64,000 nt of DNA from a virus: IMG/VR virus record IMGVR_UViG_3300045988_171102. One strand, written 5' to 3'. Below, piece by piece: positions 10,100 through 40,332 of the stretch (positions within the stretch are counted from its first letter, which is position 1; each line of letters starts with the position of its first letter). Under the pieces are notes generated by a model that was not told the origin of the DNA, made no database searches, and saw only the letters and a list, made by a program, of their open reading frames with translations. A program made the translations under genes and the position numbers.

Positions 10100-10175
10100 T
10101 GGTGACACAGAAGAGATTTGAACTCTCACTTTACAGATTTTAAGTCTGCTGTCTCTGCCGTTGGACTACTGTGTC
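10100..10175 (-). tRNA. tRNA with anticodon UAA (Leu by anticodon) but a short variable loop; CCA encoded
   Basis: Hand-folded cloverleaf. Acceptor GACACAG/CTGTGTC; anticodon stem GCAGA/TCTGT with loop CTTAAAA; T arm GAGAG-TTCAAAT-CTCTT; A73; CCA. Confidence 0.65.
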
Positions 10176-10336
10176 ATATCCGGTATTATGTAGACTAAAA
10201 GGCTGATGGAACAACAGTAAAAGGACATCGTCGTTCAACACCGAACTGAGCAAATATTCAGTATAAAGTCTTTCTACAAATTAAGTAGATTTTTATTTGA
10301 ATCGCTAAGATTATAAAATCACTACACAATACCGTT

Positions 10337-10411
10337 TGGCTGAGCAGGCGGGAATTGAACCCACGATACTGGAGTCAAAGTCCAGTGCCTTAACCGCTTG
10401 GCGACTGCTCA
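10337..10411 (-). tRNA. tRNA-Gln (anticodon UUG), CCA encoded
   Basis: Hand-folded. Acceptor TGAGCAG/CTGCTCA with U1:A72 and G73 as in bacterial tRNA-Gln; anticodon stem CTGGA/TCCAG with loop CTTTGAC; T arm GTGGG-TTCAATT-CCCGC. Confidence 0.8.
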
Positions 10412-19293: not shown

Positions 19294-19491
19294 TCATATG
19301 CCAATCATCGTATCCATTGTATTGTGTATCAAATCAATGTTTGTTTGGATTTCAAACCGTTCATCTTCTGTTGTTGTATAGGCAATACCGATACATTCAA
19401 GGTTTGAAAAGTCAACATTCTCTGTTCCATATTCTTCTTCGCAAAAATCAGTTATCAACCGTTTTGCATCGTCAATTGTATATTGTCTCAT
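19294..19491 (-). CDS. small hypothetical protein
   Basis: ORF in track, co-directional. Confidence 0.45.
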   Translation of the reverse strand: MRQYTIDDAKRLITDFCEEEYGTENVDFSNLECIGIAYTTTEDERFEIQTNIDLIHNTMDTMIGI

Positions 19492-32141: not shown

Positions 32142-32172
32142 TTTGTTACCTCCACAGTTTTTTTGATTATGT

Positions 32173-32201
32173 TTGACAAAGAATAAATAATAATGTATGA
32201 T
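32173..32201 (+). promoter_or_regulatory. sigma70-like promoter of the RHH gene
   Basis: TTGACA, 17-nt spacer, TATGAT. Confidence 0.55.
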
Positions 32202-32351
32202 ATGTTTTAGATTTTAAACATCTTTTTTTCCTTTTTGTCTACGACAATTATATCACAAGTTGTTACATTTTTCAAGCGTTATTTTATACAAAGATATAAC
32301 AACTTGTTATATCGGTTTTATATAAACTGCACAATAACAGAAGGTGATACA

Positions 32352-32573
32352 ATGACAATAAATAACAATAGCAATAACAATAATTTACAAAATAAAACTT
32401 CAGAAGCTCGAAAAAAAGCAAGTGCAAAATATACTAAAAAAACATATAAAAACAAAACGGTATATATTAAATTAACTGATTTAGAAAAGATTGACGCATA
32501 CCTTCAAAGCGTGGGTATGAGCTGCACACAGTTTTTTTATAAAGCGTTAAGGGATAATGGTGTAGATGTATAA
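32352..32573 (+). CDS. ribbon-helix-helix (CopG/Arc-like) DNA-binding protein
   Basis: Start moved to MTINNN, which follows SD GAAGGTGA. KTVYIKLTDLEKIDAYLQSVGMSCTQFFYKALRD fits the strand-helix-helix pattern. Confidence 0.45.
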   Translation: MTINNNSNNNNLQNKTSEARKKASAKYTKKTYKNKTVYIKLTDLEKIDAYLQSVGMSCTQFFYKALRDNGVDV

Positions 32574-32606
32574 ATATTATTGTTTATGGCAGGCAGGAAG
32601 ATAGGC

Positions 32607-32631
32607 AAGAAAAAAAGCACAAAAGTGCTTT
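32607..32631 (-). terminator. intrinsic terminator oriented for leftward transcription
   Basis: The AAAGCAC-AAAA-GTGCTTT hairpin has its U-run (T7) only on the minus strand. Confidence 0.45.
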
Positions 32632-34364
32632 AACAAATTAAAGTGTTATAAAAAATATAAGTATTTATTTCGTTGAAGTGCATTTATATATACTTATAAA
32701 TAATATAACTGTATAATCAATGAATGCACGAAGTCTTTTAATACTTTAATGTACTAAAGTGTTATAATAAATATAACTGTATTTTCTCCCGCTCCCACGA
32801 ACTTATAAAACAGCTCTTCAAGCTCTTTTCTTCTTTTCTAACTGTCCGCTTTTTGATGTTTTGTGGACAATTAACAAGTTTTTTAATGCCGATGAAGTAA
32901 GATAACGCAAGCTGCTAAAACAAATAAGAAACAATTTTTTTCAAATTTTAAGAATTAAAATAATCAAAAAACCTCCGATATTATCTATCTTTTTTTTGAT
33001 TTTCTTAAAGTTTAAAGTATAATGCAAAAGCAAAAAAATACAATAATTTATAATTCAAATTTCATAACGCTAACGCTTTATGCCGTACACTAAACGGCTA
33101 TATATAGGGGGGTAGTTTACATTCCCTAAACGATTTTCATTTCCAATAAAGGGCATAGTACACTCATCCAAATATTCGCCACCAAAAATCCAATTATGAA
33201 TTTCCCCACCTCCCCTATCTCTAAAATCCCCTATTTTTTACTCTTATATTTTTGACCACTTTTTTTCAACCAATTTAAAAATTATTAATGCTTTATAAAT
33301 TCCTTAAATACCGCATATTCAAGCCATTTTTTACTTATTAAACCTACACAACATTATTTTCATATTTAACCCCTTTAAACTTCCTTAAAACCTCATTGCC
33401 AAGCCATTTTCACGAACTTAACATAGAATTAATAAAAAAACGCAATTTTACAAATTATAGTATCCCCAATAATACAATTAATATATTCTTTAGGTTTTAA
33501 GCCATTTTTTAAATAATTTACGCTTTAAATAATTTCATAATCTTAATAGATTCAATATTCAAGTTCATTCCAATTCATTTTCTTAAAATACCGTATATCT
33601 AAATGCAAAAAAATACTTTATTTTTTTCAACTGCTATTTCTGTAACCATATACAACTTTTAACTTATTACTCTTATTTCCCATTATTGCTTAATAATCAT
33701 ATTAAAAAACAATTTCAATTCTTAGTTTAACCACTCATTTTTGTATGAAGTGGTCTTTTTATTTCTTAAAGATCTAATTAAACAACCACACTAACGCTAC
33801 AGTAAAATTACAAAAATTATTATGTCAGACAACAAATTGAAAATAAGAGACGAGTAAACTCGGATGTTATTTTCTGTTTGTTGTCGTAAACAGTTGTTGA
33901 TTGTTTTACCTTCAGGTGAAACAAGAAATGACTGTTTACTTTTATTGGCTTGGCAACAATTATGTGATAAGAAATTTATTTGTTATAATTCACAATAATA
34001 AGTATCTCTTATGCTCTTCATAGTCTCTATACGCTCTCAGATTGCAATGAACTCTCTTTTATGTAAAAAATACCCTAATACACCAATAACTTTGCTTACA
34101 ATCAATTTTTAAGCCTTTTAGAGCACATTCTGTTTTATTTAATTCTTTAATAATTACTTTTAAAAAATACAACATATCTCTATTTTGCTCTATTTTGCCC
34201 TGTATTCGATTTTTTGGTTTAGCAATGTAATTATACTATTTTTGTATTTTAGTTTAATACAAGCCAATTTTCGCAAGAATAGAATAAGTTTTGAACGCAA
34301 ATGCTTATTACATATTGATTTAATATTAATTTAATAATATTTTTTACTTTTTTTACTGAAACTA

Positions 34365-34392
34365 TTGCAATTTTAAAATTATCTGTTATAAT
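34365..34392 (+). promoter_or_regulatory. strong sigma70-like promoter with extended -10, firing rightward
   Basis: TTGCAA, 16-nt spacer ending in TGT, then TATAAT. Confidence 0.55.
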
Positions 34393-34410
34393 ATATTTTA
34401 GACATATCAG

Positions 34411-34426
34411 TTACAAGTGACGGTTA
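34411..34426 (-). promoter_or_regulatory. copy c of the 16-nt motif (TAACCGTCACTTGTAA on the minus strand)
   Basis: Plus strand reads TTACAAGTGACGGTTA. On the minus strand, TTGTAA is followed after 17 nt by TATTAT. Inverted relative to copy d. Confidence 0.5.
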
Positions 34427-34451
34427 AAGATTATTTGTATTTACATGTTCA

Positions 34452-34557
34452 GGATTAAATAAGCGTTAGCGTTTTAATCCGTTTAAGGTTTAATTATCGC
34501 TAAGCGTTAGCTTAGTGAGAAATAAACCGCAATCAGCCCCCGTAGCGTTAGCTACGG
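34452..34557 (+). repeat. three consecutive stem-loops sharing the apex AGCGTTAGC (GC-GUUA-GC)
   Basis: GGATTAAA(taAGCGTTAGCgt)TTTAATCC at 34452-34480; GCTAAGC-GTTA-GCTTAGT at 34499-34516; CCGTAGC-GTTA-GCTACGG at 34540-34557. Confidence 0.75.
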
Positions 34558-34621
34558 CACAAAAGAATGAATATATCTAACTAATAAGTTTTCTTATTGG
34601 TTTGTTTCTTTTTACTTATGT

Positions 34622-34637
34622 TCACCGTCATTTGTAA
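34622..34637 (+). promoter_or_regulatory. copy d of the 16-nt motif (TCACCGTCATTTGTAA), pointing at the rightward genes
   Basis: Read directly from the plus strand. TTGTAA is followed after 17 nt by TATTTA. Confidence 0.5.
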
Positions 34638-34731
34638 TTTATGTTTTATTTGACTATTTATTTTATTCTTTTGTTTCTTATTTCTTATTTTCTTAATTTT
34701 ATTTTGAATTTAAAGAAAGAACCAAAGAAAG

Positions 34732-34769
34732 GATTTACTTATTACCCCTAAAGGGGTAATAAGTAAATC
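34732..34769. repeat. perfect 18-bp inverted repeat (GATTTACTTATTACCCCT aa AGGGGTAATAAGTAAATC)
   Basis: Read directly. Flanked by TTTCTTAT repeats and an extremely AT-rich tract. About 200 bp upstream of the Rep-like gene. Confidence 0.85.
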
Positions 34770-34970
34770 TAATAATATTAAATTTCTTATATTTATTTCT
34801 TATATTATTTATATTATTAAATATATATTATATTATAAATTTATATTATAAATAACAAAAAGGTGTGAGTAAAAAACGAACACCGTATTAATGAACTTTT
34901 ATTTATAAAAGGTTGTGTGCAAAAAATAGTCGAAAAGTGGTTACAATTTTGTTACAAAAAGGATGATTGA

Positions 34971-35990
34971 ATGGTGTATACATATAAAAATGAGTTTGTC
35001 AATTTTAAGTTACTTGTAAATCAATCAGTTACTTCTAACATGACAATACCAAAAAACATTATTGATGAATTATTCAAAAATAAAAATGAAAAAGTTTGGT
35101 TTGCGTATTATGTTATGAGAGGGCTTGGGCGGTTAATTATGTATTCACAAGCAATACATAGTTGGAAGCAAGATAAATTTCAGGCAAGCAATCAAAAAAA
35201 TGGTAATAAGATTATTGCCGATTATTTTAATAACATAAGACTTATTGAAATCAAACGCAGCTTCACTGACTTGACCAAAGACATATTTGAGAATTTTTCA
35301 TTTTATGTAATTTTTGAAACTTTATTTCCTTTTGTAGATAGAAAGTTTTATAAGTCACTTGAGAAAATCTTTTTTGATGGATTAGAATATTTCATTAAAC
35401 AAGGTAAGATTGTACGAATTTGTAATCGTAGAATTGGTTATCCGTATTATCGGACTATGTATTGGAACATCACTGTTGATATAAAGCCAATTTACATTAC
35501 AGATGAGTTTGCAGATGAATTAACAGTTGAGACACTTAACTTACCTAATAATATTTTAAACACTTCTTACTCATTTAAATCTGAATGGTTAAGTCAATGT
35601 TTTAAGATTACCGAAGCGAATCCAATGAAGGCATTAAGGATGTCGAGAGTTTTGTGTTTTATAATAAATAAAAGAATTAAGCGATATCATAAAAAAATTG
35701 CATATCTATCATTTAGGACATTGAGCAACCTTACAGGACTTTGTGAACGAAGTATTAAAAATTATGTAAAAGAATTACGAGATAATAATTTACTTTATTA
35801 TGACAACTATATTTTAATTGCGAATCCTCTGAAGCAGGTGTGTAAGTATAGCAAAAATTTTTATTGCCTGCCTGAAGATAAAGACTATTTAGAGAAAATA
35901 GTTGAAAAATATAGAATTAAAAAAATTGAAGCAGAACAAAATACAAAAGCGAAACAACCAATAAATGAAATGATAGAAAATTTTGAATGA
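34971..35990 (+). CDS. putative replication initiator / DNA-binding protein with C-terminal winged-HTH
   Basis: ISFRTLSNLTGLCERSIKNYVKELRDNNLL is HTH-like. Sits next to the iteron/palindrome/AT-rich region. Confidence 0.4.
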   Translation: MVYTYKNEFVNFKLLVNQSVTSNMTIPKNIIDELFKNKNEKVWFAYYVMRGLGRLIMYSQAIHSWKQDKFQASNQKNGNKIIADYFNNIRLIEIKRSFTDLTKDIFENFSFYVIFETLFPFVDRKFYKSLEKIFFDGLEYFIKQGKIVRICNRRIGYPYYRTMYWNITVDIKPIYITDEFADELTVETLNLPNNILNTSYSFKSEWLSQCFKITEANPMKALRMSRVLCFIINKRIKRYHKKIAYLSFRTLSNLTGLCERSIKNYVKELRDNNLLYYDNYILIANPLKQVCKYSKNFYCLPEDKDYLEKIVEKYRIKKIEAEQNTKAKQPINEMIENFE

Positions 35991-37082: not shown

Positions 37083-39959
37083 ATGGCTCAAAGCAAAGCT
37101 GTAAATATACCGTTATTGGACGGTAAAGATGTGTATATTGCAAATCATTATATTAACAATAGTTTGAACGGATATACACTTAGAGACAAATTTGGTGACT
37201 TAAATATAAAGAAATTTGTCGCCACAATGGATTATAGTTTAGACTTAATTAAATTGAATGATGTTTACAAAGAAGTGTATCGAAATAGAAATTTTTATGA
37301 ATATGTTGGCAGAAATAAAAAATATACAAGGCATGTTATAAATGTCACTTTTAAATACAGCAATAAACTTTACAATCGGGCTGGTTCAGGTTTGTATATT
37401 AAATTCGGTTACTCCCCTACCGAAGTTATATTAGAAAATAATGCTTGTATTAAAGATGGTACTTTAATAGCTATTCGAGTATTGCCAGATGGTAAAGAAA
37501 AAAATATTACAGAAGATTATCTTGTGAAGTCTCCCCTTTCACAAGAAATCTTAGGTGAATATTTTTTTTATGATAAAGAATTATCTGTTTATAGAGCTAA
37601 AGATAATATTGAGACATTAACCTCAATTTCTGACATTAGAACTGATTTATATGAAAATGGTTTTGTTTGTGACGGAATTAAGTATGTACGATTTAAACGC
37701 AGTAGTGGTAGCAGTCGTGTAGGTAAATGCCTATTTATTGACGAAAAATTATACAAAAAGATGCATAAATGGGAAATGTGTGGATTAAATGTAAAGAATG
37801 GTGTTAAATGTGATTTGGCGAGTCTTGAGCCTTATATAGCATTAACTCTTTCTTCTATCATAGACACAATAACCATTGAACCAAATGAAATTCTTGTCAT
37901 CCCCGATTATGAAAGCAAATTTACGACAACTTGCGTTGCTACAGAACTTGATAAGGATAATAGACTTATTTCGTCAGCAAAACAAGTTGATATGTCAAAT
38001 AGTATTTGGGATGGACAGTCCTTATTAGATGTTAGTAAATTTGAGGACTACAAAAATTATGGTATGTTGTTATTGCGTACACGTTTTTTTAAATCTGCTT
38101 GTTTTAATACTAATATTCAGCAATGGTTTACTGATAACGGAATCACTGACATATCGCAATTAAATGGATATACTCAAGCCACAAAATTGTCTGATATTAA
38201 ATTAATTACTACTCCAAGCAGTATTAAATATTTAAAATTTGGTTCTTTAGAAGATTGGCTATGGACAATTGAACCACAATTTGGTGTTGTAAAACATGAA
38301 AAGCCTACTCATTATTTTGATGGTAGAATGGTTCAAACACATTATCAATTGCTTAATACTTTACAATTGACGAAAGATGAAGTAGAGAAATTTATTCAAC
38401 CTACAATTGACTATATTATGAAATTGAAAACAGACAGTGCTGTATTTAGGCATCACATTAAATATTCAATTCCTGAATATACAAATGCTGAATCTCAACA
38501 ATTGGCGAATAAAAATGATATTGTATATTACTTGCTTGGACTAAATAATAAATTTAGCCAAACCAAAATGTACAAAGACTTTTGTAATGAAACTGTTAAG
38601 GCATTTGTTAAAAACTGTCGCAAGGGACATATCTTCGTACATGGTAATTATTCAACACTATTTGGCAACCCTATCGAAATGCTACAAAGTTGCATTGGAC
38701 GATTTAATGGAGAACCTAAAATTAAAGCAGGCACAGTACATTGTACGATGTTTAATAATGGTGATAAGTTAATAGGAAGTCGTTCTCCTCATGTTACAAT
38801 GGGAAATATTTTATGTTGTCAGAATGTAATATATGAGGACATTAATAAATATTTTAATTTAAGTAATGAGATAGTATGTGTCAATAGTATTCGTGATAAT
38901 TTATTAGAGAGATTAAGTGGTTCAGATTTTGATTCTGACACTGTTTTGTTGACAGATAATAAAATATTATATCAAGCTGCAATTCGTAATTATGATAATT
39001 TTCTTGTACCGACAAAATTAGTGTCAAGTAAAAAATGTGAGCGTAGATATACGGCACGAGATAAAGCTGAACTTGACATTAAGACAGGAACAAATAAAAT
39101 TGGAGAAATCATTAATTTATCTCAAGAATTAAATTCTAAGTTATGGGAATTAATTTATAACGGATATGATATACAATCAAATGAGGTACAATCACTTTAT
39201 GCTGATATTGCACAATTAGATGTGATGAGCAATTTGGAGATTGATTCAGCTAAAAGAGAAAATCCGGCAAACAATTCTATGGAGCTTAAATTATTAAAAG
39301 CTAAATATGCTGTATATGATAACAAAGGTAGATATGTCCGACCACTATTTTTTAAATATTTGGATAAGTATAAGGGGTATGACAATAATCGAAAACATTA
39401 TCGGCTTTATAATACTACGATGGATTATGTCGAACTTGCTTTAAATAAAATACCTCGTGTAAGAAATAATGCTCCCCTTTTAAATTTATCAGACATTTTT
39501 AAATCATCTAATGCAATTGATGGACAAGTGTATTATGAACAAGTTGAGCGTATATTGTCCGCCATTCAAGATACTAAAGACGAAATTGGTCATTTGTGGT
39601 CAAAGTATAAATCTAAAACTGGGAATGTTAATAAAGGTGAAGATGCTTTCTCTTATGAGCAGTGTTTAAAGATGACAGAAGAAGCAAAAGAAGATTGCGT
39701 AGAATATATTAATTCACTTAAAATTTCTAAAAAAACAATGCGTTATCTTTTATCTTTAATCGAAAAACCCACACATAAAAATTATTCAGCATTATTTTTA
39801 TCAGCAATATTCACTTACCACAATATAAATTTTGATGAATTAGTTGCCGATAGTCAAGAAAATGTATTTCAAATTAAAGAATGTCCGATAGAATCAGAAC
39901 AGTATGACATTAAGTTATATGACTTTAATTACCGATATGTAAGTAATGTGAATACATAA
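37083..39959 (+). CDS. YonO / cellular RdRP-like single-subunit two-barrel RNA polymerase (putative)
   Basis: RSPHVTMGNILCCQNV ... LSGSDFDSDTVLLTDN resembles the catalytic block of RNAi-type RdRPs and their phage homologues (DxDxD metal loop). Confidence 0.65.
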   Translation: MAQSKAVNIPLLDGKDVYIANHYINNSLNGYTLRDKFGDLNIKKFVATMDYSLDLIKLNDVYKEVYRNRNFYEYVGRNKKYTRHVINVTFKYSNKLYNRAGSGLYIKFGYSPTEVILENNACIKDGTLIAIRVLPDGKEKNITEDYLVKSPLSQEILGEYFFYDKELSVYRAKDNIETLTSISDIRTDLYENGFVCDGIKYVRFKRSSGSSRVGKCLFIDEKLYKKMHKWEMCGLNVKNGVKCDLASLEPYIALTLSSIIDTITIEPNEILVIPDYESKFTTTCVATELDKDNRLISSAKQVDMSNSIWDGQSLLDVSKFEDYKNYGMLLLRTRFFKSACFNTNIQQWFTDNGITDISQLNGYTQATKLSDIKLITTPSSIKYLKFGSLEDWLWTIEPQFGVVKHEKPTHYFDGRMVQTHYQLLNTLQLTKDEVEKFIQPTIDYIMKLKTDSAVFRHHIKYSIPEYTNAESQQLANKNDIVYYLLGLNNKFSQTKMYKDFCNETVKAFVKNCRKGHIFVHGNYSTLFGNPIEMLQSCIGRFNGEPKIKAGTVHCTMFNNGDKLIGSRSPHVTMGNILCCQNVIYEDINKYFNLSNEIVCVNSIRDNLLERLSGSDFDSDTVLLTDNKILYQAAIRNYDNFLVPTKLVSSKKCERRYTARDKAELDIKTGTNKIGEIINLSQELNSKLWELIYNGYDIQSNEVQSLYADIAQLDVMSNLEIDSAKRENPANNSMELKLLKAKYAVYDNKGRYVRPLFFKYLDKYKGYDNNRKHYRLYNTTMDYVELALNKIPRVRNNAPLLNLSDIFKSSNAIDGQVYYEQVERILSAIQDTKDEIGHLWSKYKSKTGNVNKGEDAFSYEQCLKMTEEAKEDCVEYINSLKISKKTMRYLLSLIEKPTHKNYSALFLSAIFTYHNINFDELVADSQENVFQIKECPIESEQYDIKLYDFNYRYVSNVNT

Positions 39960-40071
39960 AAATAGCTCATTTTTTGCAAAAAACGGCAAAAAACTAAGTT
40001 TTTTAAATTGAAATCTTCAAAAAAGCCAGTATTTAAGCCATTTTTTATAATAAATAAAAGATGTATATGGT

Positions 40072-40102
40072 AAAGAGAGTGAACCTCCCCATCACTCTCT
40101 TT
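40072..40102. other. 11-bp stem hairpin without a U-tract, in the RNAP-downstream intergenic region
   Basis: AAAGAGAGTGA-ACCTCCCCA-TCACTCTCTTT. Confidence 0.6.
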
Positions 40103-40131
40103 AAATATAATTTAGAAAGAGTGATTTATTT

Positions 40132-40332
40132 TTGTTTCCTATTACAAAGGAAGAAAGTATAAAAATCAGAAAGAAATATCCTGAAGCAGAAATCAGAAGA
40201 ACTGTTAAGCAGAAAAGTAAGAGGCATAAATATTTTTGTCCAGAGATAAAAAAATATCTTGTATTAATCAAAGATACGAATGAGATAGCTTGTTCAATCT
40301 ATACACGAAAGAGAAAATACTTTAATGCTTAA
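40132..40332 (+). CDS. small basic hypothetical protein
   Basis: ORF in track (TTG start); overlaps the next gene start. Confidence 0.45.
   Translation: MFPITKEESIKIRKKYPEAEIRRTVKQKSKRHKYFCPEIKKYLVLIKDTNEIACSIYTRKRKYFNA

What the first reader, a model, noticed from the sequence alone, without database searches (positions are those of the whole stretch)
32574..34970. 2.4-kb ORF-free region at the point where the two gene arms diverge
Elsewhere the genome is tightly packed, with gaps mostly under 100 bp. Here about 2.4 kb has no ORF of 60 aa or more in any frame. It is bounded on the left by a terminator whose U-run works only for leftward transcription (32607-32631). It contains a strong rightward promoter (34365-34392), several families of direct and inverted repeats and several GC-rich hairpins in an AT-rich background. 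A perfect 12-nt inverted pair lies 1.4 kb apart: AACGCTAACGCT at 33066-33077 and AGCGTTAGCGTT at 34462-34473. The region could hold the origin, the lysis/lysogeny or early/late switch, long non-coding RNAs, or all three.
Basis: seen in the sequence. Interest (0 to 1): 0.75.

Follow-up and report, generated by a model that had tools for sequence, protein, structure and literature searches.

The report
Phage packaging-and-replication control region, non-coding
The 2.4-kb gene-free stretch is a real, conserved control region of an SPβ-like gut prophage; its left half matches the place where Bacillus phage SPβ DNA is opened for packaging, and its right half holds structured RNAs, a palindrome and an extremely A+T-rich stretch that belong with a replication-type gene.

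Summary
Window 32574-34970 has no ORF of 60 aa or more under any tested genetic code. It is the largest ORF-free interval in the window; the next internal one is 450 nt. Relatives keep it gene-free.

The region has two modules.

**Left module (about 32.6-33.77 kb).** It contains a 16-nt motif, M1 (GGGGGGTAGTTTACAT, 33107-33122), a 45-nt conserved block and a G-poor tail. The same element lies upstream of the YonO-type RNA polymerase gene in many phage families. These include Bacillus phage SPβ, where published virion-read data place the packaging start and a sharp ~250-bp terminal block exactly there. M1 is better conserved than any protein compared. Mirror-image G/C skew flanks it.

**Right module (33.8-34.97 kb).** It occurs only with the lineage-specific HTH_36 "rep-like" gene. 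It holds:
- a conserved promoter
- two strongly folding plus-strand RNA elements (z about -9)
- a perfect palindrome whose arms covary
- the most A+T-rich DNA in the window

Packaging and replication roles are inferred, not shown. The arms actually diverge about 350-400 bp to the left of the gap. This is a new member of a known kind, of moderate interest.

The parts
32574..32612 (.). Short G-rich, C-poor stretch right after the stop codon of the small plus-strand gene. Close relatives expand it by 60-100 nt.
   Evidence: Sequence, indels in relatives, positive G/C skew at -600 to -500 from M1.
32614..32631 (-). Terminator-like hairpin (AAAGCAC-NNNN-GTGCTTT) with its T-run only for leftward transcripts.
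   Evidence: Scan. The stem is kept in relatives and the loop is flipped, AAAA versus TTTT, in L007 and L036.
32628..32785 (+). Direct repeat with 116-nt spacing. Each copy carries an extended -10-like box, AAAGTGTTATAA(A/T).
   Evidence: the repeat finder families D3, D4 and D9. It is not conserved in L073, so function is doubtful.
32845..32885 (.). Conserved small hairpin (TGTCC...GGACA) about 220-260 nt upstream of M1. It contains the gap's only DnaA-box-like 9-mer (1 mismatch).
   Evidence: 89% identical to L073 within otherwise unalignable sequence. DnaA-box scan; the box is not kept in L073.
33062..33100 (.). Two small hairpins just upstream of M1. The first has GCGTTAGC at its apex on the minus strand; the second is GCCGT-N7-ACGGC.
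   Evidence: partly kept in L073.
33107..33122 (+). M1 motif GGGGGGTAGTTTACAT, present once in the window. It is the core of an element shared with SPβ and many phage and prophage families of Bacillota.
   Evidence: SPβ has GGGGGTATATTTACAT.
33155..33200 (+). Block 2, TAGTACACTCATCCAAATATTCGCCACCAAAAATCCAATTATGAA. Its first bases correspond to the point where the sharp ~250-bp virion-read block of SPβ ends (CATAGC|ACTTCC).
   Evidence: 44 of 45 positions identical in L073, family alignment, SPβ fragment sequences.
33123..33750 (+). G-poor, C-rich tail (G 2-8%, C 13-31% per 100 nt). It holds three M2 units (AAAACCGCAT-N5-AAGCCATTTT-like) at 33321, 33401 and 33499.
   Evidence: Composition, skew profile shared by about 15 of 18 families, M2 statistics, M2 kept in L073.
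33732..33775 (+). Terminator-like hairpin (ACCACT...AGTGGT followed by CTTTTTATTT) at the end of the G-poor tail.
   Evidence: Read from the sequence. It is absent from L073, so it is of doubtful generality.
33826..33942 (+). S1: two adjacent long imperfect hairpins with arms of 28 and 26 nt.
   Evidence: the repeat finder I2 and I5. The plus-strand fold is -59.6 kcal/mol (z -9.1) and the minus-strand fold is -40.6 (z -5.9). G-U pairs occur only on the plus strand, in both the window and L073. Changes in L073 are mostly wobble-compatible, with no double compensations.
34186..34245 (.). Conserved block of unknown role (GCTCTATTTTGCCCTGTATTCGATTTT...GTAATTATACTATTTT).
   Evidence: About 78% identical to L073 where neighbouring sequence does not align.
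34365..34392 (+). P4: sigma-A/sigma-70-type promoter with an extended -10 box.
   Evidence: 10 of 12 consensus matches plus TG. Position and TG are kept in L073, with changed hexamers and a spacer one base longer.
34400..34650 (+). S2: a strongly structured plus-strand element that starts at the predicted P4 start site. A closing helix of about 23 bp (34401-34425 with 34625-34647) encloses four hairpins. Three of them have GCGTTAGC at the apex, at 34463, 34504 and 34545, exactly 41 nt apart.
   Evidence: Fold of -82.7 kcal/mol, z -9.6; the minus strand gives -63.2, z -6.4. Seven pairs have changes on both sides in L073. Motif statistics.
34651..34731 (+). T-rich tract with TTTCTTA-type repeats, followed by the conserved GATTTAAAGAAAGAACCAAAGAAAG. 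On the minus strand this conserved stretch is the U-rich tail behind the palindrome.
   Evidence: TRF, alignment.
34732..34769 (-). Perfect 18-20-bp palindrome with a 2-nt spacer. It is terminator-like for leftward transcripts.
   Evidence: the repeat finder I14 and terminator scan. Three sequence variants (window type, L076, L073) are all perfect, with 1 and at least 6 compensated positions. The spacer is AA here and TT in relatives.
34762..34861 (.). The most A+T-rich DNA in the window: 5 G/C in 100 nt, and 1 in 60 nt at 34791-34850. It is a candidate DNA-unwinding element and a hotspot for assembly breaks.
   Evidence: Contig ends fall at 34762, 34801, 34823 and 34845.
34845..34873 (-). Candidate leftward promoter, TTTACT-17-TATAAT. 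Together with the palindrome it would give an antisense RNA of about 110 nt to the rep leader.
   Evidence: Scan. Conservation in L073 is unclear. This is a hypothesis only.
34862..34885 (+). Small conserved hairpin, GGTGT...ACACC, about 85 nt before the rep-like start codon.
34971..35990 (+). rep339: a lineage-specific protein with an HTH_36 domain. It always travels with the right-hand module.
   Evidence: Pfam PF13730, 29 bits, E 9e-7; a weak PHROG O-like hit. Only 4 protein clusters exist. The structure model failed, pLDDT 38.
37083..39959 (+). YonO-type single-chain RNA polymerase homologue. It is the syntenic anchor of the M1 element.
   Evidence: phrog_8308 at 1.5e-98, local match to SPβ yonO, synteny in other families.
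40020..40047 (+). Fourth M2 unit, AAAAAGCCAGTATTTAAGCCATTTTTT. It lies outside the gap, upstream of a 66-aa yonK-like ORF and the exonuclease gene.
   Evidence: conserved in L073, L075 and L076.

Best explanation
The gap is a composite cis-acting control region of a temperate, SPβ-like prophage.

**Module I (about 32.6-33.77 kb).** This is the homologue of the SPβ yonR-yonP intergenic region. It most likely holds the packaging start and virion-end region. M1 and block 2 would mark the inner edge of a short terminal block, and the flanks have mirror-image G/C skew.
- Shown: the homology, the synteny and the skew.
- Inferred from SPβ read data: that virion ends form here in this phage.
- Inferred: that M1 and block 2 are read by the end-forming machinery.

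**Module II (33.8-34.97 kb).** This belongs to the lineage-specific rep-like gene.
- Promoter P4 starts a rightward RNA whose first 250 nt fold into a closed multi-hairpin domain (S2).
- S2 is followed by a U-rich tract.
- Next comes a perfect palindrome that terminates leftward, possibly antisense, transcription.
- Then comes the window's A+T minimum, and then the rep-like gene.
- The likely role is replication control, an origin, or both.
- Shown: the folding potential, the strand bias, the covariation and the co-occurrence with the gene.
- Inferred: transcription, origin activity and any antisense control.
For: **Module I**
- A sequence-only model was built from 15 non-Bacillus M1 regions. 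It hits SPβ at 41.7 bits (E 2e-11) and phage BUCT082 at 45.7 bits over the full 111 positions. Chance matches to the 16-mer alone score 17-21 bits. The window has one hit.
- M1 lies upstream of the YonO-type polymerase gene, in the same orientation, in every locus that reaches that gene.
- The gene order RNA polymerase, exonuclease, large terminase, portal matches SPβ.
- Published SPβ data show that the ~250-bp high-coverage block of virion reads starts at CTTCGATTCC. Those are also the first bases of the BUCT082 record.
- That block ends at ...CCCATAGC, which lies between M1 and block 2.
- The mirror skew is present in about 15 of 18 families.
- The element also occurs in prophages of Paenibacillus, Lachnospiraceae, Ruminococcus, Oscillospiraceae and Dehalobacter.

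**Module II**
- Fold z-scores are -9.6 (S2) and -9.1 (S1). The plus strand is favoured by 18-19 kcal/mol in the window and 12-18 in L073.
- S2 has seven double-sided compensations.
- The palindrome stays perfect through three sequence variants.
- The A+T minimum of the window lies here.
- Module II motifs are found only in genomes that carry rep339.
Against: - No virion-end data exist for this phage.
- Assembly breaks cluster at 34.6-34.97 kb, not near M1.
- No motif is conserved at the expected outer edge of the terminal block.
- Such deep conservation of a 16-mer is unusual for a pac site, because pac sites normally co-vary with the small terminase.
- An sRNA candidate has been reported in the same SPβ interval, so M1 may act as RNA.
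- The Enterocloster phages, which have distant YonO-like genes, lack M1 near that gene.
- The replication role of rep339 rests on one HTH_36 hit. NCBIfam gave nothing and the structure model failed.
- Classical iterons are absent, and there is only one DnaA-box-like site, which is not conserved.
- All compensatory changes come from one or two lineages.
Confidence: 0.55

Rival explanations
1. M1 and the G-poor tail are a transcription unit, not a DNA-end signal. M1 would be part of a conserved small RNA, the counterpart of SPβ ncr1052. The C-rich, G-poor untranslated flanks would act as Rho-loading zones that stop transcription leaving the central block from entering either arm.
For: - Irnov et al. 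list a 183-nt sRNA candidate between yonR and yonP, on the yonP strand.
- Taking the yonP start as 2,222,441, that sRNA maps to L070 24750-24568. This runs from 34 nt past the opening point to 3 nt past M1.
- TA-rich -10-like boxes lie 0-10 nt upstream of the G-run in several families.
- C is enriched about two-fold in the tail, which mutation bias alone does not explain.
Against: - No conserved secondary structure or covariation is seen around M1.
- The sharp edge of the SPβ virion reads falls inside conserved block 2. That fits a DNA-level role.
- The coordinate mapping assumes that both papers used the same genome version.
- No Rho data exist.
Confidence: 0.22
2. The whole gap is the lytic replication origin. 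M1 and the G-poor tail would be the initiation site (transcription- or primase-primed). The right-hand hairpins would be single-strand initiation signals.
For: - The minimum of the cumulative GC skew falls at 34-35 kb.
- The A+T minimum and the palindrome lie next to a rep-like gene.
- The hairpins are strand-specific, like single-strand origins.
Against: - The skew minimum coincides with the switch in gene orientation, so it is uninformative.
- M1 occurs in many families that lack rep339, and in SPβ it lies where virion ends map.
- The local skew to the right of M1 is opposite to the usual leading-strand G excess.
- No iterons and no cluster of DnaA boxes are present.
Confidence: 0.12
3. The region is the early/late or lysis/lysogeny switch. 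Repressor operators would control divergent promoters.
For: - In SPβ the master repressor MrpR binds its operator at the yonP promoter, at the far end of the homologous gap.
- P4 is a conserved promoter that heads the operon containing the phage RNA polymerase gene.
Against: - No SPβ-type operator sequence and no repeated palindromic operators flank P4.
- The neighbouring small gene points into the gap rather than away from it.
- Promoter-like sites are no more frequent than in shuffled sequence.
Confidence: 0.08
4. The gap is decayed coding sequence or junk.
For: None beyond the absence of ORFs.
Against: - The gap's length and several blocks are kept in diverged relatives.
- Part of the gap is conserved as far as Bacillus phage SPβ.
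- The folds are extreme and the palindrome arms covary.
- No relative carries a gene here.
Confidence: 0.02

Closest known systems
SPβ yonR-yonP intergenic region: the 'genome opening point' and ~250-bp fragment containing the pac site (Fink & Zahler 1982 as cited there; Kohm et al., bioRxiv 10.1101/2021.11.22.469490)
   Same: - Homologous M1 and block 2
- A G-poor tail
- Mirror-image skew
- Position directly upstream of the YonO-type polymerase operon
- Unannotated and gene-free
   Different: - The SPβ gap is about 950 bp and leads straight to the yonP promoter with its MrpR operator.
- Here another 1.2 kb (S1, P4, S2, palindrome, A+T stretch) and a rep-like gene are inserted before the polymerase gene.
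- The outer edge sequence, CTTCGATTCC, is not found here.
- Virion ends are untested here.
Short exact terminal repeats and concatemer junctions of T7-type phages (from general knowledge, not tested)
   Same: - A phage with its own RNA polymerase
- A short, sharply bounded terminal block
- Conserved sequence at the edge of that block
   Different: - The polymerase and terminase are unrelated.
- Kohm et al. interpret SPβ as headful packaging from a pac site, not as exact terminal repeats.
- Reading the 250-bp block as a terminal repeat is my inference.
Headful pac regions of SPP1 and P22 (from general knowledge; Kohm and Hertel, PMC8270828, report no similarity between the SPβ region and the SPP1 pac site)
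   Same: - A unique cis site where packaging starts
- Repeated short motifs nearby
   Different: - These pac sites lie in or next to the small terminase gene and evolve fast.
- This element is 8-10 kb from the terminase gene and is conserved across classes of Bacillota.
Leader and antisense-RNA control of plasmid rep genes (pT181, pIP501, pMV158; ColE1 RNA II/RNA I) (from general knowledge)
   Same: - A long structured leader with several hairpins ahead of a rep-type gene
- A strong terminator oriented for a short antisense transcript within the leader
   Different: - No sequence relation
- Antisense promoter unproven
- Hairpin loops are 4 nt (GTTA, GATA, GTCA, ATTA), not 6-7-nt kissing loops
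- The context is a 100-kb prophage
Phage theta origins next to or inside initiator genes (lambda ori, SPP1 oriL) (from general knowledge)
   Same: An A+T-rich stretch and inverted repeats beside a helix-turn-helix initiator-like gene
   Different: - No array of 17-22-bp direct iterons
- The elements lie upstream of the gene, not inside it
- The initiator identity of the gene is unproven

Membership tests
SPβ-type packaging-start / virion-end region | Sequence homology to the SPβ ~250-bp 'pac-site' fragment and its downstream flank | tested here: met
   Model R1 was built without Bacillus sequences. It hits SPβ (41.7 bits, E 2e-11) and BUCT082 (45.7 bits). The window scores 59.7 bits with a single hit. 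This covers only the inner 50-60 nt of the fragment plus the flank.
SPβ-type packaging-start / virion-end region | Gene-free position directly upstream of the YonO-type RNA polymerase operon, in the same orientation, in an SPβ-like gene order | tested here: met
SPβ-type packaging-start / virion-end region | Virion DNA ends or a read-coverage step map to the element | not testable with these tools
   No raw reads or virion DNA are available. Assembly breaks cluster 1.5-1.9 kb to the right of M1, which neither supports nor excludes this.
SPβ-type packaging-start / virion-end region | Conserved outer edge ('opening point', CTTCGATTCC...) about 200 nt upstream of M1 | tested here: not met
   No shared motif was found at -500 to -60 across 21 families, and none in the window. 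The outer edge may be lineage-specific.
Theta-type replication origin with adjacent initiator | An adjacent gene encodes a replication initiator | tested here: inconclusive
   HTH_36 at 29 bits and a PHROG O-like hit at E 0.009. NCBIfam gave no hit. The AlphaFold model has pLDDT 38 and is unusable.
Theta-type replication origin with adjacent initiator | A+T-rich unwinding element | tested here: met
   34762-34861 has 5 G/C in 100 nt, the minimum of the whole 64 kb.
Theta-type replication origin with adjacent initiator | Array of direct iterons and/or a cluster of DnaA boxes | tested here: not met
   No iteron family was found. The three GCGTTAGC sites 41 nt apart are hairpin apexes with differing stems. 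There is one DnaA-box-like site with 1 mismatch, and it is not conserved.
Described RNA families (Rfam 15) | Match to a covariance model | tested here: not met
   The window gives only two tRNAs at gathering score. In 32300-35100 there is nothing below E 3.
Antisense-RNA-controlled rep leader (plasmid type) | Long leader from a defined promoter to the rep start codon | tested here: met
   P4 at 34365-34392 and the ATG at 34971 give a leader of about 570 nt. Only predicted.
Antisense-RNA-controlled rep leader (plasmid type) | Antisense promoter plus terminator inside the leader | tested here: inconclusive
   The terminator is good: a perfect covarying palindrome followed by a conserved U-rich tract on the minus strand. 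The promoter TTTACT-17-TATAAT is present here but unclear in L073.
Antisense-RNA-controlled rep leader (plasmid type) | Detected countertranscript that regulates rep | not testable with these tools
   No expression data are available.

The most novel reading that the evidence does not exclude
M1, block 2 and the mirror-skewed flanks form a previously undescribed, deeply conserved genome-end module of SPβ-like phages across Bacillota. The 16-mer would be read not by a fast-evolving small terminase but by a conserved partner. Possible partners are an RNA made from the block (the ncr1052 counterpart), the YonO-type polymerase, or a host factor. End formation would then depend on transcription or RNA. 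The G/T-rich 3' tails at both ends would be selected as unstructured recombination substrates.
Probability: 0.12. Interest if true: 0.8.

Novelty: new member of a known kind. Interest (0 to 1): 0.55.

Why it matters
SPβ is a long-standing model phage, yet its packaging signal and end-forming mechanism are still undefined.

This analysis shows that one 16-nt motif and an adjoining block sit at the published virion-read edge. They are conserved from Bacillus to gut Clostridia, better than any phage protein compared. That gives a precise, testable target for mutagenesis. It also gives a sequence marker for locating genome ends in the many uncultured 100-220-kb gut phages of this type.

The mirror-image G/C skew at both presumed ends is an unexplained and general feature.

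The right-hand module adds two unclassified, strongly structured RNA candidates and a covarying palindrome tied to a rare rep-like gene.

Tried and rejected
- **Alternative genetic codes.** Recoding TGA or TAG does not open an ORF.
- **Nucleotide search of the gap.** A search against 50,697 phage records found no match.
- **Rfam.** Nothing was found in the gap at gathering or E-value thresholds.
- **M1 as the YonO promoter.** Rejected. M1 is unique per genome. The published YonO start site maps about 280 nt inside the yonN-yonK gap, and no M1 or M2 is there.
- **M1 as the SPβ repressor operator.** Rejected. The operator is ACAAAAAATATGTATA at the yonP promoter.
- **M1 as a dif/Xer half-site.** Only a 9-mer resemblance, recalled from memory, with no second arm. 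Dropped.
- **B. subtilis Chi in the SPβ tail.** None was seen on inspection.
- **Conserved RNA structure around M1.** None was found.
- **Conserved outer-edge motif.** None was found.
- **M2 as a shared promoter with SPβ.** Only an 8-mer in common, at chance level.
- **Structure prediction of rep339.** The model had pLDDT 38, so no fold search was run. NCBIfam gave no hit.
- **Scan with a 19-nt S2 pattern.** It found only close relatives and one chance hit in coding DNA, L079.
- **Enterocloster phages.** They have no M1 near the polymerase gene.
- **Contig-end clustering as evidence for physical ends.** Judged more likely to be an assembly effect of the palindrome and the near-pure A+T stretch.
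Full report
**1. The observation**

- Window 32574-34970 has no start-to-stop ORF above 49 aa. No stop-to-stop frame exceeds 61 codons, and reading TGA or TAG as sense does not change this.
- It is by far the largest ORF-free interval in the 64 kb. The next internal one is 450 nt.
- The terminator-like hairpin at 32614-32631 and the promoter at 34365-34392 are as described. The 12-nt inverted pair is present.
- Sigma-70-like sites overall are no more frequent than in shuffles: 33 against 35.3.
- One correction concerns the left neighbour, 32235-32573, probably 32352-32573, which is a 73-aa gene call in relatives. It lies on the plus strand. The arms therefore diverge at about 32142-32234, and the gap lies inside the rightward arm.

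**2. What genome this is**

- The right arm carries, in order:
  - a 958-aa protein of phrog_8308 with a weak match to entries annotated "RdRp"
  - an exonuclease
  - a tyrosine recombinase
  - the large terminase
  - the portal
  - a 1966-aa tape measure protein
- The left arm carries a DnaB-like helicase, a primase, a Sak4-like protein and a helicase-methylase.
- Against SPβ:
  - the 958-aa protein matches YonO locally (34.5% over 55 aa)
  - the terminase matches YonF (26% over 243 aa)
  - the portal matches YonE (21% over 512 aa)
  - the order is collinear
- Near-identical sequence sits inside a 374-kb human-gut contig, so this is an integrated prophage. Contigs of about 100 kb represent the whole phage.

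**3. Not decayed genes**

- Close relatives are 95-97% identical across the gap.
- Genomes whose rep-like protein is only 55% or 52% identical (L073/L074 and L075) still have a gene-free gap of 2473 and 2410 nt.
- A relative with 44% polymerase identity (MT835469, locus L008) has its own 2.3-kb ORF-free stretch.
- SPβ has an unannotated 950-nt gap at the same place.

**4. Module I: the M1 element**

- The window and L008 share GGGGG(G/A)TAGTTTACAT followed by G-poor sequence.
- An exact scan of IMG/VR returned 60 loci. About 45 of them fall into several unrelated sequence families. In each family:
  - the next 300 nt have 3-12% G and 21-32% C
  - a second block follows about 35 nt later, with consensus TAGCACTTCCACTCACAC
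- Wherever a locus reaches the YonO-type polymerase gene, M1 lies 1.8-6.5 kb upstream of it in the same orientation.
- SPβ carries ATGGGGGTATATTTACAT, then AGCACTTCCATTTCCACACCC, then a G-poor tail. These lie between yonR and yonP, directly upstream of yonP-yonO.
- A sequence-only model was built from 15 non-Bacillus sequences. It hits SPβ at 41.7 bits (E 2e-11) and phage BUCT082 at 45.7 bits over its full length. Loci that share only the 16-mer by chance score 17-21 bits. The window has one hit.
- The same model identifies the element in prophages of Paenibacillus, Lachnospiraceae, Ruminococcus, Oscillospiraceae, Dehalobacter and Anaeroplasmataceae.
- The motif does not appear in the main text of any paper in the searchable library.

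**5. What that place does in SPβ**

- Kohm et al. (bioRxiv 10.1101/2021.11.22.469490) cite the restriction mapping of Fink and Zahler. They place the "genome opening point" and packaging start between yonR and yonP, with packaging running toward yonP.
- They describe a precise ~250-bp block of excess virion-read coverage that follows the opening point.
- Their supplement gives the block sequences. In yonP orientation the block:
  - starts at CTTCGATTCCCTCGGATTCG, which are also the first bases of the BUCT082 record
  - ends at ...ATGGGGGTATATTTACATCTAATGG...GTACCCATAGC
- The sharp inner edge therefore falls 35 nt past M1, at the first bases of conserved block 2 (CATAGC|ACTTCC).
- The equivalent point in the window is about 33157-33160.
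- I read the block as a short terminal repeat. That is my inference; the authors favour headful packaging from a pac site.

**6. Mirror skew**

- I oriented every family on M1.
  - The plus strand is C-poor at -600 to -300 from M1.
  - It is neutral at -200 to 0.
  - It is strongly G-poor (skew -0.5 to -0.9) at +100 to +600.
  - About 15 of 18 families, including SPβ, show this.
- The end of the BUCT082 record is visibly G/T-rich.
- Combined with the SPβ ends, this means the 5'-ended strand at both virion termini is C-rich and G-poor just inside the terminal block.
- In the window the C-poor arm is short, about 32574-32700. Close relatives expand it.
- The cause is unexplained. Untested ideas are:
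  - unstructured G/T-rich 3' tails that serve recombination
  - Rho-loading zones
  - deamination, which does not explain the C enrichment
- No motif is shared at the expected outer edge.

**7. Alternatives for M1**

- It is not the YonO promoter.
  - The published start site (2225998; PMC5467207) maps to L070 20552, inside the yonN-yonK gap.
  - This uses yonP start = 2,222,441, taken from the tables of PMC4448311.
  - It fits the primer positions.
- It is not the MrpR operator, which is ACAAAAAATATGTATA at the yonP promoter.
- An sRNA candidate, ncr1052 (183 nt, yonP strand), was reported in this interval (PMC2965217).
  - With the same calibration it maps from 34 nt past the opening point to 3 nt past M1.
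  - An RNA-level role therefore remains open.
- Enterocloster phages with distant YonO-like genes lack M1 near that gene.

**8. Module II**

- The alignment with L073, which is about 65-80% identical where alignable, shows conserved islands.

*S1 (33826-33942)*
- It consists of two long hairpins.
- The plus-strand fold is -59.6 kcal/mol (z -9.1). The minus-strand fold is -40.6 (z -5.9).
- G-U pairs occur only on the plus strand, in both the window and L073.
- Changes are wobble-compatible, but there are no double compensations.

*Promoter P4*
- Its position and its TG are kept in L073.

*S2 (34400-34650)*
- The fold is -82.7 kcal/mol (z -9.6). The minus strand gives -63.2.
- A closing helix of about 23 bp starts 1-2 nt from the predicted P4 start site and encloses four hairpins.
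- Three hairpins have GCGTTAGC at the apex, exactly 41 nt apart, with differing stems.
- L073 shows seven pairs changed on both sides, loop variants GATA and ATTA, and one hairpin replaced by a different one.
The copy at 33069 is the same apex motif on the other strand.

*After S2*
- A T-rich tract follows.
- Then comes a perfect palindrome at 34732-34769. It occurs in three sequence variants, all perfect, with at least 6 compensated positions in L073 and one in L076. Its spacer is flipped, AA versus TT.
- On the minus strand the palindrome is followed by a conserved U-rich tract, so it is a good leftward terminator.
- With the candidate promoter at 34873-34845 it would give an antisense RNA of about 110 nt. 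This is a hypothesis.
- The most A+T-rich DNA in the window follows: 1 G/C in 60 nt at 34791-34850.
- A small conserved hairpin and the rep-like gene come next.

**9. Link to rep339**

- The protein has an HTH_36 domain (29 bits) and a weak O-like PHROG hit.
- It has only four clusters in 5.8 billion proteins.
- Module II is present in every genome that carries it (family A, L073/74, L075, L076 as far as that contig reaches).
- Module II motifs are absent from the other M1 families.
- This co-inheritance argues that module II is the cis partner of rep339.
- Its initiator identity is unproven. NCBIfam gave nothing and the structure model was unusable.
- There are no classical iterons and no cluster of DnaA boxes.

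**10. Verdict**

- The gap is real and functional.
- The best-supported statement is homology of its left part to the SPβ packaging-start and virion-end region. Function is inferred from published SPβ read data.
- The right part is a rep-linked, strongly structured regulatory and origin-like module.
- What remains unknown:
  - whether ends form here in this phage
  - what reads M1
  - why the flanks are skewed
  - what S1 and S2 do

Noticed in passing
L008 12364-12854 and L061 11903-12393 (relatives; MT835469 and an IMG/VR contig): A GOLLD RNA (172.6 bits, above the gathering score) with flanking tRNA genes lies directly downstream of the YonO-type polymerase gene. This is the syntenic place of SPβ's unannotated 1.68-kb yonN-yonK gap.
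   Followed up: partly
L070 19153-20833 (SPβ, minus strand): The 1.68-kb unannotated gap after yonN looks highly structured. It contains a DUF3800-VIII RNA motif hit at 19409-19474. The published YonO start site maps to about L070 20552.
   Followed up: partly
L055 639-707 (minus strand): A Pistol ribozyme hit (60.5 bits) in a 135-kb relative that carries M1.
   Followed up: no
window 34599-34971: At least seven independent assemblies end here, at about 34599 (two contigs), 34762, 34801, 34823, 34845 and 34971. One 100,188-bp contig is a circle opened at 34845. This is probably an assembly effect of the perfect palindrome and the near-pure A+T stretch, but a physical discontinuity is not excluded.
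   Followed up: partly
window 34750-34751 and 32621-32624: Hairpin loops are flipped to their reverse complement between close relatives: AA versus TT, and AAAA versus TTTT. The stems stay the same. This is the signature of inversion or template switching within palindromes.
   Followed up: no
window 39960-40332: The polymerase-exonuclease gap holds three things: a conserved M2 unit (AAAAAGCCAGTATTTAAGCCATTTTTT, 40020-40047), a hairpin at 40071-40108 with compensatory changes in L073, and an unlisted 66-aa yonK-like ORF (40132-40332) that overlaps the exonuclease start.
   Followed up: partly
window 10100-10411 (minus strand): Two phage tRNA genes: Leu(TAA) and Gln(TTG).
   Followed up: no
L186 (ENA ERZ914941, contig k127_114307, 374,314 bp): The window's sequence, including the gap, sits inside a 374-kb human-gut metagenome contig. 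The phage is therefore an integrated prophage. The host was not identified.
   Followed up: no
L008 3512 and 4352; L061 1617 and 2459: One family has two M1 copies about 840 nt apart in the same gap. The second copy reads GGGGGATACTTTTACAT. Each copy is followed by G-poor sequence.
   Followed up: no
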